This document shows positions 2,240 to 57,027 of a stretch of DNA of 64,000 bases, piece after piece. The notes beneath the pieces were generated by a model. That model saw nothing but the letters and a program-made list of their open reading frames with translations. It was not told the DNA's origin and did not search any database. Location: assembly GCA_008632985.1 (NCBI GenBank), contig QPGO01000028.1, positions 181,598 through 245,597 on the forward strand, written 5' to 3'. This stretch comes from Psammoneis japonica (lineage: Eukaryota). A program made the position numbers and the translations under genes. Positions within the stretch are counted from its first letter, which is position 1. Each line of letters begins with the position of its first letter.

Positions 2240-2685
2240 TCACCTCAATGTCAATTTTGCCATGTCTGCAAGAGCTGTGGCTCTTAATTTCTGTGTTAAC
2301 TCCAGAGCTTTTTTCTTCCCAACTCGCTGTGCAAACAATTGCAGCCATCCCCGAACCTCGTCATTCGCGCCTGCAATTCTTCCAATCTCAGCCAGGCGTG
2401 ATTCGCATTGTTCATCCGATTTTCGACCCTTGCATTCTTCCCTAGGACCAATGCAATGGTGCACTCGAAACAATGCTTCTGCACAGGAAACAAATGTGTT
2501 GTGAATGCACAGAGCGTCCGTCATGTGGTGGGGAGACCCCACTTTGCTTCCATCATAGCGCGAGGCATCCACCAGTGGTTTTCCTGGACATCTGTTCTGG
2601 TGTGGCTGATGACAGCGATGCCGCAGTGTGTGGAATTGATTTGGATCAAAGCCGTCCGGGACTTGGGAGTAAGTTTCATTGGAAG
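2240..2685 (-). pseudogene. 3' part of a glycosyltransferase (GT92/GT2-like) pseudogene split by the Copia insertion
   Basis: Reads SNETYSQVPDGFDPNQFHTLRHR..GKPLVDAS..LFRVHHCIG directly beyond the TSD; continues the fragment at 9904-10757 with a frameshift. Confidence 0.5.
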
Positions 2686-2973
2686 ACTTGGGATGCAACA
2701 ATGCACTGTGTGGGATGGAGAGTTCAGGACTCTCTTGAGGTTGTGCAATGCAACAGAGGATGACAAGAAGCAGTTTTGGGACAATGAGATGCGCCAAAGA
2801 TGCAAATTGTGAGAAGATCTCACGAGGGATTGGAGATGACATTGTGACCCAATGGTCGTGTGTGTCACTCCGATTGCTGTCGCTAGAAGACTCAACGGAC
2901 ATTTCTTCCGGAAGAAGAGATCCATGACCGGAAGCGTCATCCGTGAATCAGACTCGGTTGTTGACTCGTGACT
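2686..2973 (-). repeat. 3' LTR of Copia element 1
   Basis: Direct repeat of 9616-9903 with 8 differing dinucleotide sites; preceded on the minus strand by polypurine tract GGTTGAGAGGGAG. Confidence 0.95.
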
Positions 2974-3009
2974 CTCCCTCTCAACCGAAAAGAGAAGGAG
3001 AACTGTCAG

Positions 3010-6000
3010 TCACCAGCCCATGAGGGCTTTGCGACCAGCACGGAATAGATCAACAGTCAACCCTTTGGCAAACTGGTCAGCAAGCTGTGCAGCTGAGCTC
3101 ACAGGCTCAATTTTGATCTCCAAAGCCTCAACTTTAGCACAAAACCAATGGTGGGGAATGCCGATGTGCTTGGTTTGTGGGGACAATTTTGGCACACGGG
3201 CAAGTTGGAGGCAGGCAGCATTGTCTTCGTACACAACGGATGCTGGGAGGTCAGTGGAGTCAATGGGAGAATCCTCAGTTCCGTCGTTGGCGTGTCGGAA
3301 AGCCTTCGAATGTGTCGAAATGTCGGTCTGTCTGTCCGGCTGTCCGAAAACGAGCGCGTTGATTTCCTTCACGATCTCGCGAAGGGGGATGAGATCACGC
3401 ATCGCTTGGGAGAGGGCGACACACTCGGCTTCCATGGCAGAGAGTGCGACGAGGGTCTGCAACTTGGACACCCAGACAATCGGACATCCTGCATGACAAA
3501 TGACATGTCCCGTGCGTGACTTGACAGACGTGGGATCTTGTCCATCTTCAACACTGAAGAGTCCCGCGAAATCAGCATCAACATGGCAGTCGAGTCGTTG
3601 ATCGGCGGTTGGAGTTAGGATGAGTCCTTTATCGGCCGCATCCTTCAGGTGACGAAGAATGCGCTTGATGGCCGCAGCGTGGGAGGCCTTGGGTGCGCAG
3701 GAGAACCGTGCGACTTGATGGGTCGCGCAAGCAATGTCCGGGCGGCTGTTGGACGCTAGATGCATCATCATGCCGACCATGGAACGGCAGTCATGAGGCT
3801 CATCGAACGGTGGCCCGTCGGTGTCGCTGCCAGCAGGAGCAGGCAAGGCAGGAGTGGGTGCGCCGTTGCACTCAGTCATCTGTGCAGTGTGGAGAACTTT
3901 CTCAATTAGGCCGGGTTGGGTCAGGAGGAATCGGCCGTCTTCGAGCTTTTGAATCTTGATGCCTGGAAAGTTGCCGACTTCGCCTTCATCACGTAGATCA
4001 AAGACATGGCGTTGCTCATCGTTGGAAATGCCCAACTTGGCAATCTCTGCTTCCAAGGCTTGGGCCGATGCGCCGGCGAACACGGCATCATCAACATGTG
4101 CCACACACAACACACCCTTTTTGAAATAAAGACAAGGGTCAATGGCGGATTGAATCCATCCTCTTTCGAGCAATCCGTCCCTCAGCTTTTCATGGAAGCA
4201 CTTGGGAGACTGGCGCAGGCCGCACAGGCCTTTCAATGATTTCAGTGCCAGATCGGCGCCCGATTTTGGCTGGAAACCCTTGGGAGGCTCTACACAGACC
4301 TTCTCCTTGACATCAGCTTGGCAGAAGGCTGCAGTGCAGTCCACTTGACGTGCAGTCCAACCTTCCTTGAGCACCGTGGTGAGGAGAAGGCGCATGGACG
4401 ACCATTGCACTGCCGGCGCGTGGGTCTCGAAAAAATCGATCCCGTGTTTCTGTAAATCGCCGTGAACGCAATGTCGTGCCTTGCACTTCAAGGGCGTGCC
4501 ATCCGGGAGTCGTTTGAGTTTGAAAGCCCATGTGCCGGGTAGCACATTCACATCTGCCGTTCTTGGCACCATTTCCCATGCACGTCGGTGGAGCAGCACG
4601 TTGGCTTCAATTTTCACAGCCTCAACCCACTCTTCGGATTCATCGCTGCGCATGGCCTCGTGNNNNNNNNNNNNNNNNNNNNNNNNNNNNNNNNNNNNNN
4701 NNNNNNNNNNNNNNNNNNNNNNNNNNNNNNNNNNNNNNNNNNNNNNNNNNNNNNNNNNNNNNNNNNNNNNNNNNNNNNNNNNNNNNNNNNNNNNNNNNNN
4801 NNNNNNNNNNNNNNNNNNNNNNNNNNNNNNNNNNNNNNNNNNNNNNNNNNNNNNNNNNNNNNNNNNNNNNNNNNNNNNNNNNNNNNNNNNNNNNNNNNNN
4901 NNNNNNNNNNNNNNNNNNNNNNNNNNNNNNNNNNNNNNNNNNNNNNNNNNNNNNNNNNNNNNNNNNNNNNNNNNNNNNNNNNNNNNNNNNNNNNNNNNNN
5001 NNNNNNNNNNNNNNNNNNNNNNNNNNNNNNNNNNNNNNNNNNNNNNNNNNNNNNNNNNNNNNNNNNNNNNNNNNNNNNNNNNNNNNNNNNNNNNNNNNNN
5101 NNNNNNNNNNNNNNNNNNNNNGGAAGCCCGTGCCAGCTCCCTCTGTTTACGTTGAAGTTCTTCCGGAGTTGACCAATCGTCTTGAAGATGAATCGACTGG
5201 TCTTTTTCGAGGGGCATCTGGACACTTTGGTCCAGGCATGACTCTTCCCAGTGGCTTGGCGGCTCACTCTCCCTCGCGATCGAAGAGACGGCAGCAAAGA
5301 GATCGTCAAACACGACATGGCACTGGGGAGTGACGCTTCCTGTCTGAAGATTGAGCACAAGGGGCACCTCGCTGGAGTGGATGCTGCTCAAGCCGAGGAA
5401 GAGACCACGACGAGTGCGGGGTTGCCAGCGGGGCAATTTCTTGCCTTCTTGAAGTTTCGGATCAAGGACATAAACCGGACAGCCCCAGACGTGGACATCG
5501 CGAAGACCATGTCGGGGTGCAGCAGTGCCGGTAAAAATGTCCGTGGGGCAGCAGCCTTGAGCGTTGGGAGTCACGTCATAAATGTGCGTGGCATGAGACA
5601 CGGCCACAGGCCACAAAGAGCTGTCTGTGCCCCCCTTCCAACGGATGGATGCGTGGAGAAGCATCGCTCTCGCCATGTTGGAGACTGCAACGCCGTTCTG
5701 ATGGTGGGCGTTGGTTCCGCAAAAACGTAGACGTTGTTCGTGCTGTCGCATGTGTTGCACAAAAGCATTGGCCTTGAAAGCGCCAGAATCGGCAAGAAAT
5801 TCTTGGATGATGACGCCGTGGTCCATCGCGTGCTTTTCAAACGCTTGCTTCGCTCGCACCGTTTCCACAGCAGAGAAACCAAGTTGGTGTTCAATGTGTG
5901 GGTAACCGGAGGCATGATCCACAAAAATGCAGCCTCCTTTGTATTGCTGGGACGAGGCCTTCCCGCAGGAGTCGCAGGTTCGGCCGAGGAGACGGGATTC

Positions 6001-9000
6001 GAAGTGATCCACGCTGACGGCTTGGCCTGGGCGTAGATGCTCGGCTCGAAGAGCACCCTCACGCTCTGGAGTAGCCGCATGTTTGGCAGACTTGAGGGTT
6101 CGGCGATGTCCTTTGGCATGTTCGCACACCTCGCACCGCGGAATGTCGCAACGCGAAGCATGCTTGAATTTGGGTCGGAGAAAAGGTTCGGCCCGAAGCA
6201 GGCCTTGGATGCGTGGCACATTCAGGTGACCAAACCTGAAGCGCCATTCTTGAAGGAGCTTCTGACCGGAGGTGAGGTTCTGGTTATCCTCGTGCAACAC
6301 AGACAGATTGACTTGAGGAGCGGGTGCCACCCCGTTGGTCACAGACGCAACCGGCAAGTGATTTGACGCGTGCGCGACCTTGAGCGAACCGACGCCATCA
6401 ACATGCACTCGAAATGAGTCCTCGTCTCCCTCACATTTTCCTGTCACGCCATGTTCCTTGCTGTGGAGGCGTTGTGGGGATAGAAGACGTTGTCCGGCCT
6501 GAGGCACATGGTCCGCCATCGTCTTGACGACGAGCTCAGAGCCGTCCTCGTTGTGGAAAACCCAGGAGACGGGTCCGATGCCGGCGATGGTTAAGCCATT
6601 TGCTAGACCCCCAAGCTTCAATGGGCCATCAGGGATCGTCAGAGGTCCGACAAAGTCGTTTTCATCGTAAGTGATGGCCAAGGATGCGCCAGTGTCGCAT
6701 GTGACGGTGTGGCGCTCATGTGCCAGGCTCAGCAAAGCTTGCGGGTCGGCGGCGAGTTGTGCTAAAGAACGTTGGCCTGTCAATGCCTGCACAGAGGTGT
6801 GAGTGGGATGGGCTTCGGTTCCGTCAGCAGCTGCCTGGAGAAGCTTCACAGGGTCTTGCCATGGAGTGGTGTCCACGAAACCAAACTTGGTGGACAGCTC
6901 GTCGAAACGAAAACAGTCCGGAGAGAGCTCCTCAACCGTGTCAAAGCAGTGGCTCAGCTCGGTAGGGAGCGGGCCGAGGGCTTCCTCTGAATCACAGGTG
7001 TCGAAGTAGGACTCGGGGTCTTCTAGAGCTGGAGGGACACAGCAGCCTGGGGAAGAGCATGCATCGTTCTCCCAGAGCTGCGTGAATTTCTTGCTCAGAT
7101 GATGGTCCGGATCGCGCTCCACAAATTCGGCAAGCACTTGTCGCGCCTTGATCTTGTTGCATTCCACCAAACTGCCCGGATCTAACACTGTCTCATCGTC
7201 CAGTTCTTCAATGATCGAGTGGACCTGAGAGCCAGCTTTGGAGAAGCGAGAGGGGACATTGGAGAATGGATGCGTGGGAAGCTGACCGTTGAAAACAGAC
7301 GCCCAGACCATGATGGCTCCAGTCAGCACCATCCAGGTAGAGGGGAAACCGTGAATGGTTGGGATGAATGCCTTACGGCGCACACAACGAGGCAAGACAG
7401 GAATCGGCGCACAGCAAATGTGTGGCACCGTTTCCCAGAACACAGCAAACAGCCAGAAAACTCGGAGCTTCAAGAAGTTCCAGAAGAGCTCAAGACGAGA
7501 GCTCGGCGTTGCCTCCTCGATGCCACAATCAACATCTTGGGGTTCGGGATCATAAAATTCGAAACCGCGATGCTGGGTGCTTGGAGGTAAGTGCTCGTAG
7601 CTGTCTTCGAAAGGTGGGATGCTTGCCCCGGAAACGAGATCGTCTAACACGTCGTCGGACAGACCTTCCACGTGAGTTGCGATCGTGTCATAAAACACGT
7701 CCGGATTTTGAATCTCATGCACAGTGTGGGCCGGAAATAGCTCGATGGCTGACGGCAGGGAGTCAAAAGAGGAGTGAGCGTCGGAGCACTCGGAGTAATC
7801 GTCAGCGTCTTCGGGGTCAACCGTTTCAACCAAGATGGGAGCGGGTTTGGCCACGGCAGTCTCCCTCTCGGCCGATGGAGCAGGAGTGAACGTGACGGTC
7901 GTAGTCACTGGAGTCGAACTCAAAGAGTCGTCCACAGGTGCACACCACATGCCGCAATAAACCAGCTTGTTAGGGTCAGAGGGTTCGTCTGTAGGCGGAG
8001 ACGTCGTCTGCTTGGGAGGACCAAAAGGAATGCCCAAAGAGGGGTCCGACACAGCAGATAAATTTGCCGCAGCGGTGGTTTCGGTTTTGACAGACGGTTT
8101 CCCGGTGTGTTGAGCGGAGGAGTGGCCTTGACACATGCCCTTCTTGCCCGTTTCCTTGTTCACACACTTGTCGCACCAGTGCCAGGTCGTGCCTTTCTTG
8201 TCGGTGACAGTGGCACCTTTGTGAACGAAACGCCAGGCCGGCTTGGGTGGTTTCTTGGAAGGGTCAGTCTTCCGGACATCCGGAGGGTCATCCTTGGACT
8301 TGTCTGCCGTGCCCTTTTTGTCCTTCTTGCATTGCTCCTTGCAGGCAGGACACGTGCGTTTGGTGCACCCAACCTTGCCACAGCCGCAGCAATGCTTTTC
8401 CGAGTTGTCCTTGGCGAGGTTGGATTCCGGGAGCTTGGCTGCTAAGGCAGGCCAATCTTCATCGCTAATGAGTTCGCCATGGGTCTTGGTGATCCAGCCA
8501 ATGAGGCCAACAGGTCCAAGATCCGCACAGTCGGCATCCTTGGGGACTTCTGCCGGGTCACGCAAGCGACATTTGCGCTCCAAGCGCTTGACGGAGTCGA
8601 GCTTGGCAAAAACTTGACGATTGAAAAACTCGGAGGATGTCTTTGATGCCTCAGATAAAACAGTGGACCCAGTTTCAACTGGTGACGCACAGTCCGTCTG
8701 CATGATCTTGAGCAGGTGCAGAGCTTCGGTTGCAAGCTCGGTGCAGTCCTCGCCAGGGCAGGCATCCAGAGTTAAGTCGTTCAACTTTTCCTTGGCGGCC
8801 TTGACGTCAACCAGAGCACTGGCGTTGCAGGCATCCAGAGCCATCATAAATGAGACAGACCCCGGAAGATCCCTGCAGTTCTTCAAGTGATTGAACTTGG
8901 CTTCAATCTTTTCACGGAAGGTTTCGGTGACACGCGACTTGACGATGAGTTGTGACAAGCCGATGTCATCGATTTCACACTGATCGTAGCCTTCATCACC

Positions 9001-9462
9001 TGTGGCCGCCACACGGGTCTCACATTCCTTCTCAAGGTCTTTGACAGTGAAGGCGTGAAGATGATCAAAAAGGTGCACGACCTTGCCGTCGACTTTCTTG
9101 AGATGGTAGAAAGTTTCTTGTCCGTGCGACTCGACCAAGTCCTGAATGGTCTTGACAAAGTGGTCTTTGTCCAGTTCAGTGCTGGAACCGTTGGACAACT
9201 CAATCTGGCCGTTGAACTTGGATGTGGTTGCCGAAGCGAGTTGATCTCGGAGAGATGGATGGCGACGCTGCGAGGCAAAACGGCAGGTGCGGGTGTTGGT
9301 CTGCTCGCACTTGTTGTTCAGAGCCGAACCACCCAGATGCACTCCATGAGAGTGGTGGATGCCGCCGCGAAGCGGCGTGGGGATCGCAGGAGGGTTGGTC
9401 GAGGTTTGCATCTTGGCAAAGGCCTCAGCAAACATCTTGACGGCATCAGGATCCATGGACAT
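3010..9462 (-). pseudogene. Copia gag-pol polyprotein (Gag zinc knuckle, protease, integrase, RT, RNase H); open but mutated
   Basis: CCGCGKVGCTKRTC knuckle, DTGAS protease, GH..CEVC pre-integrase, VDHF..DSG integrase, KARHCVHGD / LCGLRQSP / HVDD RT, DADFAG / EAEC / EDNAAC / LADQFAK RNase H; spans an N gap. Confidence 0.93.
4663..5121. other. Assembly gap (459 N)
   Basis: Run of N between the integrase and RT regions. Confidence 0.99.
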
Positions 9463-9603
9463 GGTTGTGGATGATTCGACACAGAGGATCGATTAGCAGG
9501 CAGGGATTGCGACACAGAAGATCGCCGTTGGACAGGATGTCGTCTGCAACGAGACAAACGAGTGGCAGCAACTCCATCACGAGTTGACACCGGTGCATGG
9601 ATT

Positions 9604-9615
9604 GGGGTCGTAACC
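9604..9615 (-). promoter_or_regulatory. Putative primer-binding site (half-tRNA type)
   Basis: GGTTACGACCCC immediately after the 5' LTR; resembles the copia-type internal tRNA-Met PBS GGTTATGGGCCC, with mismatches. Confidence 0.5.
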
Positions 9616-9903
9616 ACTTGGGATGCAACAATGCACTGTGTAGGATGGAGAGTTCAGGACTCTCTTGAGGTTGCACAATGCAACAGAGGATGACAAGAAG
9701 CAGTTTTGGGACAATGAGATGCGCTAAAGATGCGAATTGTGAGAAGATCTCACGAGGGATTGGAGATGACATCATGACCTGACGGTCGTGTGTGTCACTC
9801 CGATTGCCATCGCTAGAAGACTCAACGGACATTTCTTCCGGAAGAAGAGATCCATGACCGGAAGCGTCATCCGTGAATCAGACTCGGTTGTTGACTCGTG
9901 ACT
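9616..9903 (-). repeat. 5' LTR of Copia element 1
   Basis: Direct repeat of 2686-2973; flanked by TSD GGAAG. Confidence 0.95.
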
Positions 9904-10757
9904 GGAAGGCTCTCGTTGTTTGCAAACAGAACACGGGGCAATGTCATGCACGGCTTGTCAAAATGCCAGCATCTGTTGGTGCGGTTCAACTCACTGGCTA
10001 AGCAGTGTGCCACCGTAGCCTCCCCGATTTTGGGAAGTCTTGAACGCGGATGCCCTCCCTTCTCAATGTCGTCCCGAAACTTCTTCATGCATGCAGCGCG
10101 TTCAGAAATGTTGACATGGCGACAGCAGGGACAAGCCACCTCTTTTTTGTCGCAGTCGTTAAAGACCCAATGCTCATCGGGATCAATTGGCACCGTCCAA
10201 GTTCTGTTCTGCCTCTTTAGGGAATTCAGACACGACTGAATAAATGCCTCTTGACATCGTAGAAACAGTTTTAGTCATTCTGTTCTGTCAGCCGAGGGGT
10301 TGACGCACTGTCCCTTGTTGAGATAATCTTCATCGTTCCACATTTCGATCGTCACATTTGGCAACGTGCGAAACTTCTCCAAAACCGGTTCTGGCGACAT
10401 TTTGCTGCAAGGATCTGCCGCAACAATCAAGTGACGAAGAGGCAGCACTTCACAACGACATGCTGTCCACTCTGGCAAGAGGTGATTGTCCTCCTTGACA
10501 ATGACACAAGCTGACATGTCAAACGGAAAATCAGATGGCAGCGAGGTGGGTGATGATGACAATGATTCGCAGTCTGTAGATTCACATCTGTCTTGGGTGC
10601 ATGGCAGTTGGAGCTCCACGTGAAAAGCACGGGTGAACAGGAAGATTGACAAACATGGGATGACGATCCACACCGGAAGTCTCTTGTTAAAAACAGCACC
10701 TCCCAGTCTCATGAGGGGCTTGTTCTTCTGTTTCGCGGTCTCTTCCGTGTTGATCAT
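9904..10757 (-). pseudogene. 5' part of a GT92/GT2-like type II membrane glycosyltransferase pseudogene
   Basis: N-terminal TM segment, SACVIVKEDNHLLPEW..PLRHLIVAADP, and WTVPIDPDEH (DxDE); internal TGA; Tyr replaced by Cys/His. Confidence 0.6.
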
Positions 10758-11739
10758 TGCTGTGCTCGGTCTTCATTCTTCACATTGCATGCAGCAAGTC
10801 GCCTTTAGTGTTTTGTGGTGTTCAGCCCCCAGCAGCGTTGCGTTGACAAAAAATTCGAAACTGACGGCGCACCGGGTTCGCAAAATCCTCCTCAACGGAC
10901 ATTGTGTAACGTCTGAATTACAAACACAATGTCCACACACGTTAGCCTTCATCCACGCGCGCCTTCCTGTCTGCCAGGTCAATTTTTCAAAAATAGAAAG
11001 CAAACGAGCAAGAGACGTTCAAATGCGCACTGTGCAAGACTGCAAGTGCACGGCAGCGTGGGTCATTGTGCGCAGTGCTGGACAGCATTTGGGCAATTGT
11101 TGTGAGAGATTGCAGTCATGACACATGAACACCTCGCTCCACCATGCCTGGTGCTCCTGTTGTTGTTGATTTTGTGCCAAGCCCTGCAACACTCAACTCA
11201 AGAACCTGCAGGTTCAGTGCACCACAAGAAAGCCCCTCCTTTTGCAGTGGCACATTGAGCTCTCAACCGCAAGGAGAAAAAAAACAAGAGATTCACTGTC
11301 ATTGCATGGCAAAAACTCAAAAAGTTCAATCATCCAAATTTCAAGTGAGCAAGAGAGGGGGGGAGGCTCATTGCTGGTGAAAGTGTTTGTGCAAGCCCTC
11401 ACAGCAGCTCAGGCTGACTTTGCCTCAGGATTTCCAAAATTGCCAGGATGCTGCCATGCTTCAGCGCACATGTGAACTGGACATGCAGCCCTTGTTTGGA
11501 GCAAGACAGTTGCCTGCCACCATGACCACTGAGCTCATTGATGGCTGTGCAAAGCTGTTGTGCTGCTTTTCCATTTTTCCACAGCTTCAGGGGCTGAAAA
11601 CCACAGAGCAAAAATTGCCAAGAGCCACATGATGCACACGATGAAAGGTGCAGTTGCTTTTGTCAAAGCGAAGATCAAAGTTTCTTGCTCAGATGTGCAA
11701 TGCAGAGTCTGCAGAGCTCTTTTCAACAAGCCAGTGATC

Positions 11740-13110
11740 ACCAACAGAAAGAGAGGCAACATTTTGTGACAACTTTCAAGCACCCATGCTTCAAGTGTGG
11801 TGTTGCTTCCAGCATGCTCAGCTGTGCTCTTCAGATGTTTAAAAATGTGCTCAGTTGTGCTCTTCAGATGTTTCAAAATGTGCAACTTCTGCCTTGTTCT
11901 CAGAAATGGCCAAAGCCAAACTCTGCTGGCTCTTTGCAAAACTCCAAGGTTCCACCCAGAGCCAGAGCATCATTGTGCATGTCAAAAGGTTGTGCAACAA
12001 ATTGCCATGAGACAACTGTGCCAATGACCCAAAATGTGGATTGATTGTTTCTTTGTTTGTTTGTGCTGCCACAAAAAGAGCAACTCAAGCACCTCTCCCT
12101 CAACACCCTTTGTCAGGAAACTGCAAAATCTCCATGTTTTGTTTCAAAAAGCAAGGGTTGACAATGTGCTCACCTGGCTCCTGGGCAGACACATCTTGCA
12201 GAAAGCTGCCACACTTGTCTTTGCCGACACTTTGCTCAGAGCACATGTTGTTTTCTCCAGGGAAATTTCCTCACCTGTGCATTTTTCTTGTTCATTTTCT
12301 GTGCAACATGCACCATGTTGTCTTTGTCAGGTTGTTCATCCATCACAGGAAACATCATCTCCAGCCCCAGGCAGGTGCTGTGTGTGAGCATGCAAGACAC
12401 GTGTTGGGCTTCCATGCAAAATTTCTTTCTGCACCAATGCTGTCAGTGGTGAAATCATTGGGTGATGAATGAGCCAATGATTGCCAACAAAACAAAAGGA
12501 AATTTGTGTGGTTGACTTCAAGCATTGGCACTTTGAACATGCCATTTTTGGTGTGCTCACAGTCACTTTGTTTGTGAAACAGACAAAATGAAATTGTGCC
12601 AACTTTTTTTGCAAAACCAGAGATGTGCAAATCCTCTGTTGTTGCCCACACACTGATTTGCCAAGTGCATGCCTGTGTGTGAGCCACAACAGATGACTTG
12701 CTTGTGTGCACCTCTGCACAAAAAAAAGGTGTGCAAAGCACAAAAAAGTTGTCACTGGCTGGAGTCAGAAAGAGGTGCCTCTGGGGGGCATCATTGTTTG
12801 CACTCGCCAAGTCTGGGGGTGTTGAAGCTCTTGTTGGAACTCCCAATGGTGTCTCATTGTCTTTGGACAGCAGCTGCCTCAGCAGCCTTTGCACTCCACT
12901 GCATGCAAAAAGTTGTGAGCCACAGCTTTGTGTGTTTGCTGGAGGTTGTTTGGGATTTTTGATTTTTGTTTGAGGTTCTGGGGGAGAGTTGATCTTGTCT
13001 TGATCTGCTGATTTCTTGTGAGAGGCAACTGGGTCCATGCGTTTGGTGCATTTGGCAAAGGTCTTCAGCAGGGTGAGCTTCTGGAAGTTTTCTGTGCAAA
13101 AATCAGGGGG
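11740..13110. repeat. Hypermutated duplicated block, homologous to about 42075-43345
   Basis: Shared strings such as CAACTTTCAAGCACCCATGCTTCAAGTG, CCCAGAGCCAGAGCATC and CTTTGGACAGCAGCTGCCTCAGCAGC. Confidence 0.85.
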
Positions 13111-13524
13111 AAGTCTCCAGCCAGCTGCTGGCTGAAAAAAGTCTGCTCGTCAGTGCATTTGGGGTTTTTGCCAGTGCAATTTTTGTGCACATAAAAGATG
13201 ATGAGTGAGTCCATCTAGCATTCACCAAAACCTCTTGATGCACAGATTGACAGACTCTTGTTTCAGTGCAAATTCTGCACAAGACAAACCCTTTCAGTCA
13301 GCAAAACCACAGGCATGCTGTGGCACTTGGCACAAATTGCATGTGTGCTTCACCGTGTTGAAAAAAATGAAAACCATGGCAAGCACAAAGGAAAGAGTCA
13401 ATCTGTCTCCTGCTCTGTTCAACACTGGGGTGCACCTTGACCACACAAACTGATTGGGTGGGGACAAGCTTGACAATGCGCAATGATTTTCCACCAAAAG
13501 AATGCACTTCATTGGTCATTGAGA

Positions 13525-13925
13525 GCCTCGCAGACGCGTTCCAGGTCTAGGTGGGACCTCGTACTACTGAACTGTGACATCGATAGTTTTTTGAATCACG
13601 TCGTATGTCGCGCACGTAGATTTCTACGTGATTTTTTCGATATTTTGTGTCATTTTACGGTACACTTATTGAGCGATCCGTCCAACAACTTTTGACATTT
13701 TTTGTTAAAGCGCGATTCTATAATGTCTTAAGAATCGCGTAGGGCAGGCGCATTTGCAAAAACGTCGAGTGGCAAGAGGCATAATTGTACCACAAACTTG
13801 GCAGTTTATTTGATGTTGAAGATAAATATATCCATTAATTAAATTCTCGTACTACGGAGCTCGCACGTAGAATTCTACGGGCCCAATGTCACACGGAGTC
13901 CCACCCAGGACTGGAACCCATCCGC
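13525..13925. repeat. Unmutated (TA/CG-rich) copy of the repeat family also present at 25280-25538 plus 29924-30065
   Basis: Colinear alignment; differences are dominated by TA or CG here versus TG/CA in the other copy. Confidence 0.85.
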
Positions 13926-14464
13926 AAAGTGTCTCCAGTTAATTGCCAGCAATTTGTGTGGTAATTTGGTGAGCAATTCACTGCACTTTGCCATGGCAGA
14001 ACAAGGGCTGTCCAATTTTTTTTATTCAGTGACATCTCTGTTGGCAAAAGTTTTGAGTTGCGCCACCTTTGCTGGTGTCGGGCAACACTTGCACAACGTT
14101 GAACCACCAGCATTGCTCATCTGGACATTCTCCACCCCTCATGCTTTTCACTGTGCTTTTGCCATGTGATTTTGATTTGCAACACGGCAAAGTGTTGATG
14201 CAAAACAATTCTGCACATTTTGTGTGCTGCATGCTGTGGGGGGTTGGCCTTTTTCTAATTCCACTTGGGCAAAAAATTAAACCACTCAGTGGTTTGCAAC
14301 TTGCGCAGTGTGAAACTTGCGACTGAAACAATGAATCAGCACCCATGTGTGCACAACCTTTTAAAAGAGGCAAAGAGCCATCATTGCCAACGCATTGTGC
14401 AGTCAGCAACCACTCGTGTGTGAAGCACGGTTGCCGTCAAATCACCGTCATGGTCATTGATGGT

Positions 14465-14920
14465 GAGTGCACATGCTGTCAAGCGCTGCTCACAAAAAAA
14501 GCAGTGATGACTTCCTTCAGAAAACAGGACAATGACCAAATTTTCAATCTTCTGTTTTCCATTCTGCCACACAAATTCTTGTCACTTCTTCTGTTTTTCG
14601 GTTCTTCCACACAAATTCCTTTCTCTTGTGAGCATTGCAATGGGAAATTTTCAATCTTCTGTTTTCCATTCTGCCACACAAGTTCTTGTCACTTCTTCTG
14701 TTTTTCTGTTCTTCCACACAAATTCCTCTCTCTTGTGAGCATTGCAGTGTTCTGCCAGTTGCCGCCAGCTGAACTCTTTGGGGCCATGCAGGTGTCAATC
14801 CTGGCAAAGCATGTAAGCACACCTGCCTTTCACCTTTCTCTGCAGATTTCCAAGAGGCCAAGTTGTGACTGTGTTCTTGCTCTTTTGAGCAGGATGCAAA
14901 ATCATCTTCTTGTTCAGGCA
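14465..14920 (+). repeat. Hypermutated third copy of the HA-gene upstream region, with an internal tandem duplication of about 105 bp
   Basis: Aligns to 43840-44210 and 16010-16320; tandem units at about 14538-14640 and 14645-14746. Confidence 0.8.
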
Positions 14921-16608
14921 GAAACTCAGATTGGAGGGAACAAAAGTGGAGAACGGAGTGTTTGTCAACAAGCTCCACAGTCAAACAACGTTGCCAAAAT
15001 TGCACCAACTCTGCTGTCCTGCAGAACAAAAATTTTCAGTGAGTGGAAGCTCTCCCTCCTTGTGAACATCTGCTCTTGTTTTGTTGCAGAGAAATGCGAG
15101 ACGCAGAACCCGCTGACTGTGAGTGCAAAGAAGATGCACAGCAGGGGGTGCAAGGCTTTTGCAGCAAGCAGTTTTCATGGACTGCACATTGCACATCATT
15201 CTCAGCATGACAGAGCCAAAACAAAGTTGCCACAAAGTCAACAATGAACTGCAAGAAAATGGAGCACAGCCACTCAGTCGGGTTTTTGTGCCGACGCTGC
15301 CATGTGCCTCGGCATTGACCGAGAAAGGGTGGTGGGAGCCACAGCACCTTTGGACCCCCCTGCAACAGACAGAAAACAATGAGATGTGAGCATCATTGGT
15401 GTCTCCTGCTGGTCTTTACACAGACATTTTGCAAGAACAGATCGGGCACATGCGCTGTTCACTGTGTCTGTCATTTGAAAACAGGGCTGACTTTTGGTGC
15501 GCTGGAAGCACCAAAATTTGGTGCTGGAAACACCAAAACCATGCAGTGGGAAAGAGTGAAGGCAAATTTTGTTGACGGCTCCACAACTGACCTGACCCTC
15601 TGCTTGTGACCCCAAAAGTTGTCCGGAACTTACTTTGTGTTGGCGCACCATGACATTGCATTGGTGGGTTGATGTTGTGTGTTTTTCGTCGATGACGTGG
15701 TCACCCGTGGATGCACGGGGCTGGGCGCATGGCAGCGACGATGCCTGCGACTTGCGATCCGGGAAAGAGTCAGTTGTACGTACGTACAGTAGGGCCCTCT
15801 ACGTACAGTAGAGTCACAGTCGTTGTTCACTCAGCTGGATAAAAAACACTATGTAACATACGTGACAGTATTGCCGTAATATGATGACGATGTGTTCTGC
15901 GAGTATCAGGAAATACACATCTTCGAAATCCAAACATCCCTCCTTGAACAACCGATCACCATCTCAACGGACATCGAGCAAGAATGAAAATTTCTCAAAA
16001 AAGCATAGTGAGCACTTCATTTCAGAAACCAGCCAAATTTCAATCTTCTTGGATTTTGTTCTGCACTTTTTCAATCTCTTCTTGTTCTTGTTCTTGTTCT
16101 GCACTTTGCACAGCTCTTATTGCTTACACAGTATTCTCTCATTCTGTCAATAGCCGTCAGCTGAACCTTGGGTGTATGCAGGCATCAATCCTACTTCGTT
16201 TCACCGCACAGTCTGTTAGTATGTGAGTGCACCCACCTTTCTCCTTACTCTGTAGATTTGCAGGAGGCGAGTTGTGGTTGTGTTGTTTCTTTTCTGACCA
16301 GAATTCGTCATCTTATTCTGCTGCGCCTGTTTCTACATTCACCAGCGTATCGATTGAAAAACTATACGGAGCTTTTCTTTCCTCACCATCTCCACTTTGA
16401 CTACTCTCTGGAGATTGCCGTGATTTCATACAAAGAAGCCTATCGTCTCGTTATTATTACCAGCTCGGCAATTGGGTGTCGACTCAGCGGCGACAGAGCT
16501 ATTGGACGAGGGACGCACATCGTCCCGTCGTAGACTCGGGAAAGGTCAATTCAACTAGAGCTGCGCTTTGTCTGAGAACCTAAACGAGGTCCTTCAACCA
16601 AAACTGAA

Positions 16609-35373: not shown

Positions 35374-35715
35374 TGACAGAAATTGAAGGCAAATGGCAAG
35401 AATTCAAACAATGACTCCTTGCTGCTGTCTAAATGGCAGATGAGTCTCCGCTCAGAGACCGTTGCAGGAGCCGAAAGACGTGTAAGTCGGTGCAATCGGG
35501 CTGCTGTTGTCATTCTTGTGAGCCTTGTGGCTCGAAAGCAAACTACATCGCGCGCGAACGCGCGGAACTAAAGCACACAAAACTGTGCACGGTAAACTAA
35601 ACAGCGCGCGATGTTTCGCGCGCACCTGAATCCTGTTCAAATCCTGTCACTCCCCAGTTTGCTTGAGGAGTCACAGAAACAGATTCGACTTTGGATTGAC
35701 CAAAGAACTTTGGAG

Positions 35716-35900
35716 TCAAAGCACCAAAACATGAGGAGACAAGAAAGGATCAAGATCCAAGAGCAACGTTGCATTCTCCAAGTGGGTCATCTTGAGATGA
35801 GCTGTGTCTCCCCAATTGCAGATGCCGTTGTGCCTTTTAAAGCTCAAGGCACACTTGGGATCTGGTGGGATTCCGCACTTGCAATGGAAGGAGCAAAGCT
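35716..35900 (-). pseudogene. Remnant of the region at the RT N-terminus
   Basis: CKCGIPPDPKCALSFKRHNGICNWGDTAHLKM resembles the YKYG..P....AL..D..NGN..W..A...EM motif of diatom Copia pol. Confidence 0.55.
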
Positions 35901-36129
35901 TGGGCTGGTTGACAATGTTGAACGGTGGGGCAACATTGCAGGCGGCATGGCGTTTGCACGACTCGGGGAACAGAGCAAGCATCAGTTCAAAGGCACAAGC
36001 GGTGGTCTTGTGTTCCACCAATCCGACTGCATCTCCTGAGAGACTGATCCAATTGGAGAAACGAGTCTCAAGGTGCAAGCCTTTGGGGATCGGATTGGAG
36101 CAAGACATCTTGTGGTGCAAGGCTGCAGA

Positions 36130-37025
36130 TGTCTGATTGGGGCAACCAGTCCCGTGCTGCAAGACTTCTGGGATCCAAAAGGACTTGCCAGTCTTGTGAC
36201 ACGAGTCTTCGGGGATCCAATCAGGAGGCCAAGTCTTGAGGTGCGAGACTTGGGGGATCCAATCAGGAGGCCGAGTCTCATTGCACAGGACTTGAGGGAT
36301 CCAATCCGGAGGCCGAGTCTTGAGGTGTGAGACGTGGAGGATCCAATTGGGAGGCCCGGTCTTGAGGCACGAGACGTGGAGAGTCCAGTTGGGAGGCCTG
36401 GTCTCAAGGCACCAGACTTGGGGCATCCGATCAGGAGGCCCAGTCTCGATGTACGACACTTGGGGCATCCAATCAGGAGGCCCAGTCTCGAGGCATCCAA
36501 TCAGGAGGCCTGGTCTCGAGGTGCGAGACTTGGGACATCCAATCAGGAGACCTGGTCTCGAGGTACGAGACTTGGGGCATCCAATCAGGAGGCCCAGTCT
36601 CGAGGTGTGAGACTTGAGGCATCCAATCAGGAGGCCTGGTCTCGAGGTACGAGACTTGGGGCATCCAATCAGGAGGCCCAGTCTTGAGGTACGAGACTTG
36701 GGGCATCCAATCAGGAGGCCCAGTCTCGAGGTACGAGACTTGAGGCATCCAATCAGGAGGCCTGGTCTCAAGGTACGAGACTTGAGGCTTCCAATCAGGA
36801 GACCTGGTCTCAAGGTGCGAGACTTGGGGCATCCAATCAGGAGGCCTGGTCTCGAGGTGCGAGACTTGGGGCATCCAATCAGGAGGCCCAGTCTCGAGGT
36901 ACGAGACTTGAGGCATCCAATCAGGAGGCCTGGTCTCGAGGTGCGAGACTTGAGGCATCCAATCAGGAGGCCCAGTCTCAAGGTACGAGACTTGAGGCAT
37001 CTAATCAGGAGGCCTGGTCTCATGG
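36130..37025. repeat. 42-bp tandem minisatellite, about 20 units, degenerating leftwards
   Basis: Unit GGGGCATCCAATCAGGAGGCCCAGTCTCGAGGTACGAGACTT; gives 14-aa periodic ORFs in all frames. Confidence 0.95.
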
Positions 37026-37858
37026 TGCGATGCTTGGAGGATCCGAAGACAACAAAGCTGCTTGGATGTCCTGAACTCCCCATCTGATGAACCGGTTGAA
37101 CTGTTGTGAACAGATTCAATGATGGGAAAAGGAGGCTCCCCATCAGGAGATACGAGAAGCAAGTTGTCACCTCCATCACTACTCAAACGAAGACTGTGAA
37201 GGGTGACAGCGGTCGACACGTGGAGGTTGGCAGCACGTGGTTTGCGGGGTGCAAAGACTGCAGCTTTGGAAGCCATGGGTGGAGTGTCCCAACTGGTCTT
37301 GAAGTGCGGGCCTGTGCAAGGGCTGCAATCCTGCACTGGGCCGAGGTTGCTTGCAGGCGGGTTGGTCAAGACATGCGGGGCGCGACTGACACCACTTCTG
37401 GGGGACACCTGAGTGGCGGCACAGTGCAAGGCTGGTGTCAAAATGGCACTGGGTTCATCTGGTTTGGATGGCAAGGGACTCAGCACAGGTGCGGAGGGTG
37501 CTGCGCCAGTGGCCAGAGAGGTCAAGTAGTCTGGACCAAGGCGGCAGTTGCGAAATTCCTCGGGTGTGAGCAACTGGGGTTCATTGGTCACATCATCACC
37601 GTTGCAAACTTTGACAAAGTAGAAGCTGATCAAGGCTGCTAGGAGGTTTCTGTGGGTCCGTGGCAAAGGCACTGCATTGGCGCCGTCTCTGTGAGTGAGG
37701 GCATCAATTTGGGTGGGTGAGAACGTGAACAATTCCTCGCACGATTCAATCCCATTGATGGACAGGGCAGAACGAAGAGGGCTGTCATCGTCTTGATTGA
37801 GCACAGTGCCTAGAATGTATTTGAAGCTTTCGGTTTGTTGCTGTCGCGTGAGAACCAT
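37001..37858 (-). pseudogene. Gag-like N-terminal ORF of LTR element 2
   Basis: MVLTRQQQTESFKYILGTVLNQDDDSPLRSALSINGI..IDAL resembles diatom Copia Gag N-termini; lies downstream of the PBS. Confidence 0.6.
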
Positions 37859-38800
37859 GACGGAGGACGGTGCAGTAGAAACAAAAGACAGGAACCAATC
37901 TAGAGCGCGATCTTGACTCGGAGTTTTGACTTGGAACTTGGCTTGAAGAAGACTTGACTTGAGCCAGACTTGACTTGAAATCTTGGACCATCTTAAAATC
38001 AGAAGTCGCTGGGCTGTGCCACCCCGTTCGTTGTTGAGTGCTAAACTTCCCATCCGGTCCGTAGAGTTGTGCCGGCACGTCCGAACCCGCAGCCAGTGGC
38101 GCTTTGGGTTGCTTACGAGCGGAGCAGCGGGTTGTAAACCCCTGCAGGTGAGCTGACTGGAGGTGGACAAGACCCCCGAACCGTTCTTATTTTATGTCGG
38201 TTGGATTTCCCGATCAGGCTGGCCAGTTGACGCAGGCGTTGGGCGCTGTGGACGAACGAACAAACGCGGGAAAAACACCCTCGCCCCAACGTAGGCTGTA
38301 ATCACGGCTGCTTGCTCTCACAGTTGTCCTCGTGGACCTGGTGGAACTGCAAAGCACCAGCAGTCCGGGGTGGATCTGGTGCAATGGACTCGGTGTGCTT
38401 GCAGAGTGGCAGCAAAACCGCAGTCCGAAGAGTGGGCACAAGTTCTTGGCCGTGAAGATGTGCACACACACATGTGTCTTTAGCGACGAAGATCCTTGAA
38501 CATGTGGGGTTCTTGACCGTCAACCAATGAATGGGTACATCAAGGGATGAGGATCAAGGATGGACTTGGACATGACCGTTGAATGCATGTCTTCAGCAAT
38601 CAAAGGTGGCACAACCAATCCAGACATCCAGCGGTGAGGAGACTTGACGGTGACGTTAACTTCCTGCCGATGCCCTGGTGTTGAACGCGCGTGGACTTGC
38701 CGATGTATGTAGAATGTGTGCGGAGGTCCACGCAGAATTGAAACAGCGTCGTTGGTAAATCAACGACGACGATGGCGGTTGCTCAATGGGTTGACAATGA

Positions 38801-38815
38801 GCAAGACTGTTAATC
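38801..38815 (-). promoter_or_regulatory. Primer-binding site complementary to a tRNA-Asn(GUU)-like anticodon arm
   Basis: Plus strand reads GACT-GTT-AATC abutting the 5' LTR. Confidence 0.6.
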
Positions 38816-39096
38816 TGACAGAAATTGAAGGCAAATGGCAAGAATTCAAACAATGACTCCTCACTGCTGTCTAAATGGCAGATGAGTCTCCGCTCAGAGA
38901 CCGTTGCAGGAGCCGAAAGACGTGCAAGTCGGTGTGATCGGGCTACTGTCATTGTTCTTGTGAGCCTTGTGGCTCGAAAGCAAACTACATCGCGCACGAA
39001 CGCGCGGAACTGAAGCACACAAAACTGTGCACGGTAAACCAAACAGCGCGCGATGTTTCACGCGCACCTAAATCCTGTTCAAATCCTGTCAAGAGT

Positions 39097-42885: not shown

Positions 42886-42919
<34 letters not shown>

Positions 42920-56150: not shown

Positions 56151-56169
56151 AGCTGTTTTGGAAACACTG

Positions 56170-57027
56170 ACAGAAAAGCCAACGGCTCTGCAGTGACATC
56201 TCTGATGGCAAAGCAATGTCTTGATGTTTTTTGAGATGTGGTGATTTCAAGTTCCCAGTGCTGAGCTGCACCATTTGATGACTGGTCTTGCATGACGTCT
56301 TTGTCTGCTCCTTGCATGACTGGCCAATTGCAAGCCAGAGGAGTTGTTCTGTCACCAGCATAAATGAAGCCACAAAGAAGAAAACATGTGAGCACCTCTG
56401 CTTCTCACCCCCACTCTTGGAGCATCGCACTGAGCTTTCCAACCTGTGAGCGATGGAACTGAGGCTTTTTCCATTGCCTCTGTCAGCCTCCCAGCCTCCA
56501 TTGTGTGTGAAGACAATGCTGCATGGCTCCGATTTGCATGCAAGCCAAAACCATCCCCACAAACTGAGCACACAGGATTTCTGCACCACTGGTCTCACAC
56601 CAAAGTTGAGGTGCTCCAGAGATCAAGATTGAGCCTGTCAACTCTGCTGCACAGCTTGCCAGCCAACTCACCAAAGGTTCAGGTGCTGATCCATTTTGCA
56701 TTGGTCGTAAAGCCCTCATGGGCTGGTGATGCCAGTTTTGCTCTTTTCGGTTGAGAGGGAGAGTCTCGAGTCTGATCCACAGATGATGCTCCACTTGATT
56801 GCATGTTGGCAACAGCAATGGGGATGACACTGGCAACTGTTGGGTCAGAATGTCATCTCCAGTCAACCATAAGATCTTCTCACAATTTTTGTCTTTAAGA
56901 GCATGTCATTGTCTTCTGATGCATTGACAATCCTCTGTCTTACACTTTGCAACCTGCTGAAGAGAGTCTCCGCTGCTGAAGAGAGTCTCCGCTCTCCCCA
57001 GTCACCGTGACTTGTTGTGTCCCAAGT
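56170..57027 (+). mobile_element. 3' remnant of a Copia related to element 1 (RNase H, PPT, 3' LTR 56762-57027)
   Basis: LPASIVCEDNAA..IKIEPV.SAAQLA..GRKALMGW*, same PPT CGGTTGAGAGGGAG, LTR AGTC...TCCCAAGT. Confidence 0.85.

What the first reader, a model, noticed from the sequence alone, without database searches (positions are those of the whole stretch)
3010..9462. Dead but open ORF: systematic Tyr to Cys/His and loss of TA with CpG still abundant
Conserved Copia residues are changed as TA to TG/CA predicts: YVDD to HVDD, YKAR to CKAR, LYGL to LCGL, EAEY to EAEC, TYAP to THAP, and FTK to FAK across a codon boundary. The process cannot turn a sense codon into a stop, so a polyprotein of about 2000 aa stays open while its catalytic motifs are destroyed. 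CG is still common here, unlike in older blocks, so TpA loss is uncoupled from and precedes CpG decay. This gives a relative clock for repeat age.
Basis: partly seen in the sequence, partly recalled or inferred. Interest (0 to 1): 0.8.

Follow-up and report, generated by a model that had tools for sequence, protein, structure and literature searches.

The report
TpA hypermutation kills diatom retrotransposon
A young Copia-type jumping gene in a diatom genome has had most of its TA dinucleotides rewritten to TG or CA after it inserted, which ruins its enzymes without closing its reading frame and points to a RIP-like genome defence so far reported only in one unrelated alga.

Summary
Window 2686-9903 is a Ty1/copia LTR retrotransposon on the minus strand: 288-bp LTRs, a 5-bp target duplication, and an ORF at 3010-9462 with no stop. 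459 bases of that ORF read N. TA o/e is 0.17 and CG o/e is 0.87. Against 46 full-length relatives, 4 of 27 conserved Tyr survive (11 became Cys, 8 His), while 515 of 594 other conserved residues survive. None of 80 environmental relatives shows this loss. The decisive new evidence comes from two independent LTR pairs. All 19 difference events are TA/CG versus TG/CA, eight of them TG in one LTR opposite CA in the other, with no other substitution in 564 aligned bases. The changes therefore arose in chromosomal DNA after integration. TpA is lost about 20 times faster than CpG and at least about 450 times faster than other changes. Two thirds of the window is affected, with boundaries sharp to within 100 bp, and older blocks have also lost CpG. 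Host genes indicate a diatom. The same TpA-to-TpG/CpA signature was shown as de novo mutation in Bigelowiella natans (2026 preprint). My searches found no report of it in diatoms. The enzyme is unknown; adenine deamination is inferred.

The parts
2681..2685 (.). Target-site duplication GGAAG (left copy)
   Evidence: Read directly. The same 5 bases follow the other LTR at 9904-9908.
2686..2973 (-). 3' LTR of the Copia element (288 bp)
   Evidence: Direct repeat with 9616-9903, 96% identity. All 12 differing positions (8 events) are of TA/CG<->TG/CA type.
2974..2982 (-). Polypurine run next to the 3' LTR (GAGAGGGAG on the element's strand)
   Evidence: Read. Its role as a polypurine tract is inferred from position only.
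3010..9462 (-). Gag-protease-integrase-RT-RNase H polyprotein ORF, open but with conserved Tyr replaced by His/Cys
   Evidence: Tyr 15, His 92, Cys 69 of 2007 readable codons. Full-length relatives are 2000-2400 aa.
3844..4581 (-). Reverse transcriptase domain (Pfam RVT_2), with YVDD changed to HVDD at 4087-4098
   Evidence: PF07727 E 2.6e-33, residues 28-273 of P0002. Relatives have Y in 60 of 62 at the HVDD position.
4663..5121 (.). Run of 459 N inside the ORF (153 codons, frame kept)
   Evidence: Relatives have 109-203 residues here, median 166.5.
5302..5502 (-). Integrase C-terminal SH3-like domain, upstream of RT (Copia gene order)
   Evidence: PF25597 E 2.6e-7, residues 1331-1397 of P0001.
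9616..9903 (-). 5' LTR of the Copia element
9904..9908 (.). Target-site duplication GGAAG (right copy)
35374..39091 (.). Second LTR element. LTRs at 35374-35649 and 38816-39091 with TG..CA ends; TSD AGAGT at 35369-35373 and 39092-39096. It serves as an independent replicate of the LTR test.
   Evidence: All 15 differing positions (11 events) are of TA/CG<->TG/CA type.
13532..13922 (.). Unmutated copy of a short repeat, used as the polarity control
   Evidence: It keeps TA at 15+10 sites and CG at 12+4 sites where copies 25279-25542 and 29923-30067 have TG/CA. The reverse occurs at 0 TA and 1 CG sites. Composition edges are sharp.
56434..56913 (+). Old remnant of a related Copia element (RNase H end plus LTR) inside a block that has lost both TpA and CpG
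   Evidence: blastn to 2780-3303 at 69%. tblastn with P0002 and relatives. Bins 56001-57000 have TA o/e 0.09 and CG o/e 0.20.

Best explanation
A Ty1/copia LTR retrotransposon of the long-polyprotein diatom clade inserted recently and was then hit, in chromosomal DNA, by a targeted hypermutation. This process converts TpA to TpG or CpA, that is, A:T to G:C only where the A follows a T. Either strand is hit at each site. It acts on transposon and repeat blocks and stops within about 100 bp of host genes.

Because the changes only remove A and T, they cannot create a stop codon, and they delete TAA/TAG. The polyprotein therefore stays open while Tyr (TAY) becomes His or Cys, xxT|ACN Thr becomes Ala, and NTA Leu/Val become Ser/Pro/Ala. 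This very probably kills reverse transcriptase, RNase H and integrase.

A second, roughly 20-fold slower decay of CpG to TpG/CpA follows. It is most simply explained as 5-methylcytosine deamination in methylated transposons. Together the two processes produce old blocks with neither TpA nor CpG.

Shown: the direction, the TpA specificity, the post-integration timing, the use of both strands and the relative rates. Inferred: that this is a host defence, that the chemistry is deamination of adenine to inosine in DNA (my odds about 0.45; thymine oxidation is the main alternative), and that the element is dead.
For: (1) LTRs are identical at integration (established retrotransposon biology). In two elements with intact 5-bp TSDs, 19 of 19 difference events are TA/CG<->TG/CA, with 0 other transitions and 0 transversions in 564 aligned bases. 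An old duplicated gene segment in the same window shows 65 of 291 events of this type (p about 4e-13).
(2) Eight sites are TG in one LTR and CA in the other. This means an ancestral TA was hit independently on opposite strands. CpG-derived doubles expected at p_CG 0.059 are about 0.06.
(3) Polarity: a pristine repeat copy has TA at 25 sites where mutated copies have TG/CA, and the reverse occurs at 0 sites.
(4) Protein level: Tyr kept at 4 of 27 conserved columns versus 515 of 594 for other residues. 22 of 37 conserved-column substitutions are reverted by a single TG/CA->TA change.
(5) Relatives keep Tyr and have TA o/e 0.18-0.92, median about 0.63.
(6) Both strands are hit equally: TG 4305 versus CA 4042 in 77 hypermutated bins, with binomial scatter (chi2 79.9, 76 df). 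Tyr->His to Tyr->Cys is 8:11.
(7) Sharp block edges lie next to host genes that have normal TA.
(8) Non-retroelement sequence is also hit: a short TIR-like repeat, and NIF and kinase fragments.
(9) The same TpA->TpG/CpA spectrum was seen as de novo mutation in Illumina-sequenced mutation-accumulation lines of Bigelowiella natans, at about 1000 times the background rate (bioRxiv 10.64898/2026.01.13.699255; abstract, Results and Discussion read).
(10) CpG methylation of diatom transposons: PMC9998398 (abstract and passages).
Against: No reads could be examined.

Only one window was seen, so genome-wide targeting rules (repeat-dependent or chromatin-dependent) are unknown.

The counts behind the rate ratios are small: 4 CpG events and 19 informative TpA sites.

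Ten of 37 conserved-column substitutions are not of this type. One of them, His->Arg in the integrase zinc-finger region, is an A->G after C.

The scan that fetched the 80 environmental loci used a peptide pattern containing Tyr. It was therefore biased against finding other hypermutated copies.

Nothing in the sequence distinguishes A->G on one strand from T->C on the other, so the chemistry is open. No candidate enzyme could be sought.
Confidence: 0.82

Rival explanations
1. The same targeted DNA-level process, but the modified base is thymine. A TET/JBP-type dioxygenase would oxidise T at TpA to 5-hydroxymethyl- or 5-formyluracil, which mispairs with G and gives T->C. On the opposite strand this reads as A->G.
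For: TpA is its own complement, so T->C and A->G give the same TG/CA products seen. From recall, not from any call: 5-hydroxymethyluracil is enriched at TpA in dinoflagellate DNA, and 5-formyluracil is mutagenic toward T->C.
Against: No evidence for such bases in diatom DNA was seen in any call. The Bigelowiella authors favour adenine deamination, though only from a candidate ADAT2 homologue. Sequence alone cannot decide.
Confidence: 0.12
2. Editing before integration. An ADAR-like enzyme acts on double-stranded transposon RNA, or an APOBEC-like enzyme acts on the cDNA, so that the copy was already mutated when it inserted.
For: The A->G with a 5' U preference resembles ADAR (stated in the preprint's Discussion). 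Retroelements pass through RNA and single-stranded cDNA.
Against: The two LTRs of each of two elements differ at 27 positions, all of this type, and RNA editing cannot produce such differences. cDNA editing should be strand-asymmetric, but the outcomes are symmetric. Non-retroelement repeats and gene fragments are hit too. The residual-TA analysis shows a 3' T is most susceptible (ATAT 0 left against 522 TG/CA; TTAA 0.118 left). ADAR, from recall, prefers a 3' G.
Confidence: 0.02
3. Sequencing or consensus artefact. Modified bases in silenced repeats (for example 5mC at CpG and a modified A or T at TpA) are systematically miscalled, so the true DNA still has TA and the element is intact.
For: TG-versus-CA alternatives at one site could in principle arise from strand-specific miscalls. 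The effect coincides with probable heterochromatin.
Against: Conversion is nearly complete over kilobases: for example, 0 TA and 3 CG in 12001-13000. There is no reciprocal creation of CG at TA sites (TA/CG pairs 0 in the LTRs). A 2007-codon frame and the host ORFs carry no frameshifts, unlike error-prone long-read drafts. A pristine repeat copy sits inside a converted block. The same spectrum is documented with Illumina data in another alga.
Confidence: 0.04
4. Natural composition or selection. This Copia lineage, or foreign DNA with its own dinucleotide bias, simply avoids TA and normally uses His/Cys at these sites.
For: TA is under-represented in most genomes. One environmental relative (L020) has TA o/e 0.18.
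Against: 0-5 of 62 relatives carry the window's residue at the 11 Tyr columns. L020 still keeps 7 of 11 Tyr. LTR pairs and the repeat polarity show change within this genome after insertion. Catalytic-motif residues are lost.
Confidence: 0.01

Closest known systems
TpA-specific hypermutation of integrated giant-virus and virophage DNA in the chlorarachniophyte Bigelowiella natans (Mettrop et al., bioRxiv 10.64898/2026.01.13.699255; abstract, Results and Discussion read)
   Same: Almost exclusively A->G / T->C, and only at TpA, giving TpG or CpA depending on the strand. About 1000-fold above background there, and at least about 450-fold here. Aimed at foreign or mobile DNA. Low-TpA coding sequences there are enriched in reverse transcriptase and DDE domains.
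   Different: The host is a diatom (Stramenopila), not a rhizarian. The evidence here is historical (LTR pairs, repeat copies), not de novo events. The erosion is far deeper: TA o/e 0.00-0.17 over two thirds of the window, versus 0.45 for their NCLDV region. Here it is followed by CpG loss, it shows a 3'-T context preference, and its dead-but-open ORF consequence is visible. A term search of the preprint found no occurrence of CpG, diatom, stramenopile, retrotransposon or stop codon.
Repeat-induced point mutation (RIP) of ascomycete fungi
   Same: Works alike: dense, dinucleotide-specific transitions confined to repeats and mobile DNA, with sharp edges, hitting both strands and inactivating transposons.
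   Different: Opposite chemistry and direction. RIP is C->T mainly at CpA and so creates TpA and stop codons (abstracts of PMC2621366 and PMC7296669 in the listing). Here TpA is destroyed and no stops can arise. Dependence on duplication and on a RID/DNMT4-type enzyme could not be tested; diatom DNMT4 proteins related to RID exist but their function is unknown (PMC9998398, passages).
ADAR hyperediting and APOBEC3 editing of retroelements and viruses in animals
   Same: Deaminase-type transitions used against mobile or viral nucleic acid. ADAR prefers a U before the edited A.
   Different: Those act on RNA or on single-stranded cDNA before integration and are strand-biased. Here the changes are post-integration, symmetric between strands and also hit non-retroelements.
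Ty1/copia LTR retrotransposons of diatoms (long-polyprotein clade; named relatives from Fragilaria crotonensis)
   Same: LTRs, 5-bp TSD, integrase before RT, RVT_2 domain, polyprotein of about 2150 aa like relatives of 2000-2400 aa, up to 60% identity.
   Different: This copy has lost 23 of 27 conserved Tyr and other TA-encoded residues.

Membership tests
Ty1/copia LTR retrotransposon | Two direct long terminal repeats flanked by a 5-bp target-site duplication | tested here: met
   LTRs at 2686-2973 and 9616-9903, 96% identical. GGAAG on both sides.
Ty1/copia LTR retrotransposon | RVT_2-type reverse transcriptase, with integrase encoded upstream of RT | tested here: met
   PF07727 E 2.6e-33 downstream of the integrase SH3-like domain PF25597, E 2.6e-7. 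845 longer and 821 similar-length relatives carry the same domains.
Ty1/copia LTR retrotransposon | Intact catalytic motifs (autonomous, active copy) | tested here: not met
   YVDD is HVDD. Tyr is lost at 23 of 27 conserved columns, while all conserved Asp/Glu in the 20-relative alignment are kept. It is a member by descent but probably inactive.
TpA-targeted A:T->G:C hypermutation (Bigelowiella type) | Changes are A->G/T->C restricted to TpA, giving TpG or CpA | tested here: met
   Pooled over the two LTR pairs, 15 of the 19 LTR events are at TpA (7 single, 8 TG/CA doubles) and the other 4 are at CpG. No A/T change occurs outside TpA in 564 aligned bases. 25 of 25 TA-polarity sites run TA->TG/CA.
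TpA-targeted A:T->G:C hypermutation (Bigelowiella type) | Rate orders of magnitude above the rest of the genome | tested here: met
   Per-copy TpA loss is 0.70 with 0 other substitutions, a ratio of at least about 456 at the 95% bound. This is a historical estimate, not a measured rate.
TpA-targeted A:T->G:C hypermutation (Bigelowiella type) | Observed as de novo mutation in living lines | not testable with these tools
   No reads or lines were available.
TpA-targeted A:T->G:C hypermutation (Bigelowiella type) | Confined to foreign or mobile DNA | tested here: inconclusive
   LTR elements, a Copia remnant and a short repeat are hit, and host genes are spared with sharp edges. However, most old blocks have no recognisable origin, and they include NIF and kinase fragments.
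Fungal RIP | C->T at CpA, raising TpA and creating stop codons | tested here: not met
   The direction is the reverse: TpA falls to o/e 0.0-0.17 and TAA/TAG fall from 8.5 to 2.4/1.3 per kb.
Fungal RIP | Triggered by sequence duplication; needs a RID-type enzyme | not testable with these tools
   The whole genome is not held.
ADAR/APOBEC-type pre-integration editing | Acts on RNA or cDNA, so both LTRs inherit the same edits and one strand dominates | tested here: not met
   The LTRs differ at 27 positions of this type. TG:CA is 4305:4042.

The most novel reading that the evidence does not exclude
Diatoms run a programmed, locus-directed DNA base-editing defence that erases TpA from transposons and other silenced DNA. 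It is homologous to the process just seen in the rhizarian Bigelowiella, which would make it an ancient, SAR-wide counterpart of fungal RIP with the opposite chemistry (A->I instead of C->U). Because it cannot create stop codons, it would leave genomes full of long, open, dead reading frames. With the slower CpG decay it would give a two-hand molecular clock for dating repeats.
Probability: 0.3. Interest if true: 0.88.

Novelty: new member of a known kind. Interest (0 to 1): 0.68.

Why it matters
If real, this is the second lineage, and the first stramenopile, with TpA-specific hypermutation of mobile DNA. My searches of the held library found no report of it in diatoms.

It would show that the process shapes large parts of a genome: two thirds of this window. 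It would show that the process acts on retrotransposons after integration and runs about 20 times faster than CpG decay.

It makes an open question testable: do eukaryotes outside fungi and animals use DNA editing as a genome defence, and with which enzyme? Diatoms are transformable, so candidate deaminases or dioxygenases could be knocked out.

There are also practical consequences. Stop-poor hypermutated DNA yields many long spurious ORFs (125 ORFs of 120 aa or more outside the element in 64 kb), and 'intact ORF' can no longer be read as 'active transposon'. LTR-divergence dating will be badly inflated unless TpA and CpG sites are masked.

Tried and rejected
Whole genome: none is held, so no genome-wide map or enzyme search was possible.

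Earlier scan notes: nothing on this genome or sequence. The only 'TpA depletion' notes concern phages and do not bear on this.

Strand processivity gave no clear answer. TG versus CA per 500 bp shows no excess scatter. Runs tests on sites with known ancestral TA gave z = -1.8, -1.3 and +1.4, which is inconclusive.

Origin of the old blocks: tblastn with the element's proteins and 6 relatives found only one further Copia remnant. Pfam on 96+16 ORFs found almost nothing.

Same signature in environmental relatives: none of 80 loci shows it. The scan patterns favoured Tyr-keeping copies, so this is weak negative evidence.

Close sister copies that would give the ancestral sequence directly: none. 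The best relative is 60% identical.

Rejected readings:
- GC-biased gene conversion, because no A/T change occurs outside TpA.
- Foreign DNA with native bias, because of the LTR and polarity tests.
- RT error, because it is far too dense and symmetric.

Full report
WHAT IS THERE. The flagged interval is the coding part of a Ty1/copia-type LTR retrotransposon on the minus strand. The stop-to-stop frame runs 3010..9492 (2160 codons). Pfam finds RVT_2 (E 2.6e-33), preceded by the integrase SH3-like domain (E 2.6e-7). The element is bounded by 288-bp direct repeats at 2686-2973 and 9616-9903. These are flanked by the 5-bp duplication GGAAG. Full-length relatives in public data are 2000-2400 aa, so the size is normal for this clade. 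The best is 60% identical, and the named ones come from the diatom Fragilaria crotonensis. One caveat: 4663-5121 is a run of 459 N, equal to 153 codons, and the frame continues across it. Relatives have 109-203 residues there. The ORF is therefore verified as open over 2007 codons, not 2160.

HOST. No whole genome is held. A LanC-like ORF at 61745-62992 has its best named relatives in diatoms: Seminavis robusta 46%, then Amphora, Cylindrotheca, Cyclotella, Epithemia and Thalassiosira. The best unnamed hit is 55%. Helicase-associated-domain repeats, a two-pore K channel and CP12-domain ORFs also lie in the window. I take the host to be a diatom that is not close to any named genome in the collection.

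The region has 52 TA in 6024 readable bases, giving TA o/e 0.17 with CG o/e 0.87. Gene-like parts of the window have TA 0.4-0.78 and CG 0.7-1.08. Older blocks have TA 0.00-0.10, CG 0.04-0.4 and TG/CA about 1.9.
- Against 62 relatives of the RT-RNase H part, 0 of 11 conserved Tyr survive (6 His, 5 Cys), while 201 of 227 other conserved residues do (p 3e-10).
- Against 46 full-length relatives, 4 of 27 conserved Tyr survive (11 Cys, 8 His, 2 Phe, 1 Asp, 1 Trp), versus 515 of 594 others (p 1e-15).
- The polyprotein has 0.75% Tyr, 4.58% His and 3.44% Cys. Medians in relatives are 3.24, 3.26 and 1.88.
- Of 37 substitutions at conserved columns, 22 are undone by one TG/CA->TA reversal and 4 by a CpG reversal. 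Ten are unexplained and one is odd.
'YKAR' is ambiguous because relatives have F 32, H 14, Y 10, L 4 at that position.
- The refuting condition fails: relatives carry the window's residue at these Tyr columns in 0-5 of 62 cases. None of 80 environmental loci has more than 2 His/Cys at the 11-12 positions. The scan that fetched those loci used a Tyr-containing peptide pattern and is biased toward intact copies.

NEW, DECISIVE EVIDENCE: IT HAPPENED IN THE CHROMOSOME AFTER INSERTION. The two LTRs of a retrotransposon are identical at integration, which is established biology. Here they differ at 12 positions (8 events): 1 TA/TG, 1 TA/CA, 1 CG/CA, 1 CG/TG, and 4 sites that are TG in one LTR and CA in the other. 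A second, unrelated LTR element at 35374-39091 has TG..CA ends and the TSD AGAGT. It gives the same picture: 11 events, comprising 5 TA/TG-or-CA, 2 CG/CA and 4 TG/CA doubles. Across both pairs there are 0 other transitions and 0 transversions in 564 aligned bases. In an old duplicated gene segment of the same window, only 65 of 291 events are of this type. Nineteen of 19 therefore has p about 4e-13.

A TG-versus-CA double means an ancestral TA was hit once in each copy, on opposite strands. With the CpG loss estimated below, CpG-derived doubles are expected about 0.06 times. Polarity is shown separately. A short repeat at 13532-13922 with normal composition keeps TA at 25 sites and CG at 16 sites where its copies at 25279-25542 and 29923-30067 have TG/CA. 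The reverse occurs at 0 TA and 1 CG sites.

RATES AND RULES. Pooling the two LTR pairs gives TA/TA 4, TA/TG-or-CA 7, TG/CA 8, CG/CG 31 and CG/TG-or-CA 4.
- The maximum-likelihood per-copy loss is 0.70 for TpA and 0.059 for CpG, a rate ratio of about 20. TpA loss is at least about 456 times faster than all other substitutions at the 95% bound. The counts are small.
- Both strands are used equally. In 77 hypermutated 500-bp bins, TG is 4305 and CA is 4042, with only binomial scatter (chi2 79.9, 76 df). Tests for short same-strand runs are inconclusive (z -1.8, -1.3, +1.4).
- Context matters. In 85 hypermutated bins the surviving fraction TA/(TA+TG) is 0 (0 TA against 522 TG/CA) for ATAT, 0.006-0.008 for ATAC/GTAT, and 0.118 for TTAA. 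An A followed by T or C is thus the best target. This fits the near-total loss of Tyr codons TAT/TAC.
- Edges are sharp at 100-bp resolution. For example, from 63000 to 63100, TA goes 3->0, CG 7->1 and TG+CA 18->27, right beside the LanC-like gene. The same sharpness is seen at 13400/13500, 13800/13900, 46800/46900 and 47600/47700.
- By the TA o/e <0.25 criterion, 85 of 128 bins of the window are affected and 29 are gene-like.

DEAD BUT OPEN. T->C and A->G can turn only TAA into TGA, so they cannot convert a sense codon into a stop. In hypermutated bins, TAA and TAG fall to 2.4 and 1.3 per kb per strand, against 8.5 and 8.5 in gene-like bins. TGA stays at 24.5 against 19.6. The element's frame 0 has no stop, while frames 1 and 2 have 47 and 83. 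The open frame is therefore still the signature of a recently intact gene, not merely stop-poor DNA. Seventeen in-frame CGA codons remain, so CpG decay can later close it. Conserved Asp/Glu are all kept in the 20-relative alignment, as expected for codons without TA. That the protein is inactive is an inference from HVDD and the many lost conserved residues, not a test.

TWO CLOCKS. No 1-kb bin with TA o/e >=0.4 has CG o/e below 0.66. Seven bins (the Copia element and 10001-11000) have TA <0.25 with CG >=0.75. The remaining low-TA bins have lost CpG to varying degrees. The CpG part is most simply 5-methylcytosine deamination: diatom transposons are CpG-methylated, and loss of DNMT5a derepresses young elements in Phaeodactylum (PMC9998398, abstract and passages). 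I did not show methylation here.

WHAT IS KNOWN. A full-text search found one directly relevant paper: Mettrop et al., bioRxiv 10.64898/2026.01.13.699255. I read its abstract, Results and Discussion and ran a term search on it.
- In Illumina-sequenced mutation-accumulation lines of Bigelowiella natans, 231 of 302 nuclear mutations fall in an integrated giant-virus region and a virophage region. 230 of those 231 are A->G/T->C.
- The authors state that all of these GC-biased mutations fall on TpA. The rate is about 6e-7 per site per generation, roughly 1000 times background, and only some lines show it.
- Low-TpA coding sequences are enriched in reverse transcriptase and DDE domains. The authors propose an ADAT2-like adenine deaminase.
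- The term search found no occurrence of CpG, diatom, stramenopile, retrotransposon or stop codon.
Seven searches combining diatom with TpA, dinucleotide, hypermutation, RIP or TpG/CpA found nothing on this process in diatoms in the held library. Subscription journals are not covered.

MECHANISM AND RIVALS. I commit to a host-directed DNA-level process that targets silenced or mobile DNA and converts TpA by base modification, followed by replication. Adenine deamination to inosine is the most likely chemistry (about 0.45). Oxidation of thymine at TpA is the main alternative. The sequence cannot separate them, because TpA is self-complementary.
- Pre-integration RNA or cDNA editing is excluded as the main source by the LTR differences, the strand symmetry and the hits on non-retroelements.
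- A base-calling artefact remains formally open because I could not see reads. It is unlikely because conversion is near-complete over kilobases, no reciprocal CG is created at TA sites, the long ORFs are frameshift-free, a pristine copy sits inside a converted block, and there is an Illumina-based precedent.
- Fungal RIP is the closest functional analogue, but it has the opposite direction (C->T at CpA, making TpA and stops), so this is not RIP.

VERDICT. It is best filed as a new, phylogenetically distant member of a kind of hypermutation described so far only in one 2026 preprint. New aspects here are the action on LTR retrotransposons, the coupling to CpG decay, a context preference and the open-but-dead ORF consequence. 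Whole-genome and read-level confirmation are the missing steps.

Noticed in passing
window 35374-39091: A second LTR element of 3.7 kb with TG..CA ends and TSD AGAGT. Its internal ORFs (35719-37182, 37004-38191, minus strand) have no Pfam match, and it carries an internal tandem-repeat array at about 36146-37044. It may be a non-autonomous element.
   Followed up: partly
window 13500-13930: A short repeat of about 420 bp with imperfect terminal inverted repeats (MITE-like). It has normal TA and CG content yet sits inside a fully converted block, while two other copies (25279-25542, 29923-30067) are converted. Either it inserted very recently or it escapes targeting.
   Followed up: partly
window 10116-18947 versus 41740-46640: An old segmental duplication in several pieces (70-81% identity) that includes helicase-associated-domain ORFs. 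Its divergence is ordinary (116 transversions in 2188 bp), so old duplicates at about 80% identity are not strongly hypermutated.
   Followed up: partly
window 30373-30756 and 39072-39917: Fragments of host-type genes lie inside converted blocks: an NIF/CTD-phosphatase domain (E 9.7e-6) and a protein kinase domain (E 4.8e-7, below the Pfam cut-off). The process, or the blocks it targets, is therefore not limited to recognisable transposons.
   Followed up: no
window 4663-5121: The N run is exactly 459 bases (153 codons) and keeps the polyprotein frame. This fits masked or size-exact missing sequence better than a rough gap estimate, although there is a 1 in 3 chance of this otherwise.
   Followed up: partly
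window, all converted bins: The tetranucleotide ATAT is completely absent from converted bins (0, against 114 in gene-like bins, counting both strands), whereas TTAA is the most persistent TA context.
   Followed up: yes
window 6241-6243 (residue 1084 of the polyprotein): A conserved His in the integrase N-terminal zinc-finger region (46 of 46 relatives) is Arg here. This is an A->G after C, so it is not of the TpA type.
   Followed up: no
L020 (metagenome contig, 1776 bp): One environmental Copia relative has TA o/e 0.18 and CG o/e 0.10 but keeps 7 of 11 conserved Tyr. It may come from a host with generally low TA/CG, or it may be at an early stage of a similar process.
   Followed up: no
window 62989-63999 and other converted blocks: Converted DNA yields many long ORFs on both strands, for example the overlapping 33370-34155 (+) and 33385-34308 (-), none with a family match. 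These are likely spurious gene calls caused by the loss of TAA/TAG.
   Followed up: partly
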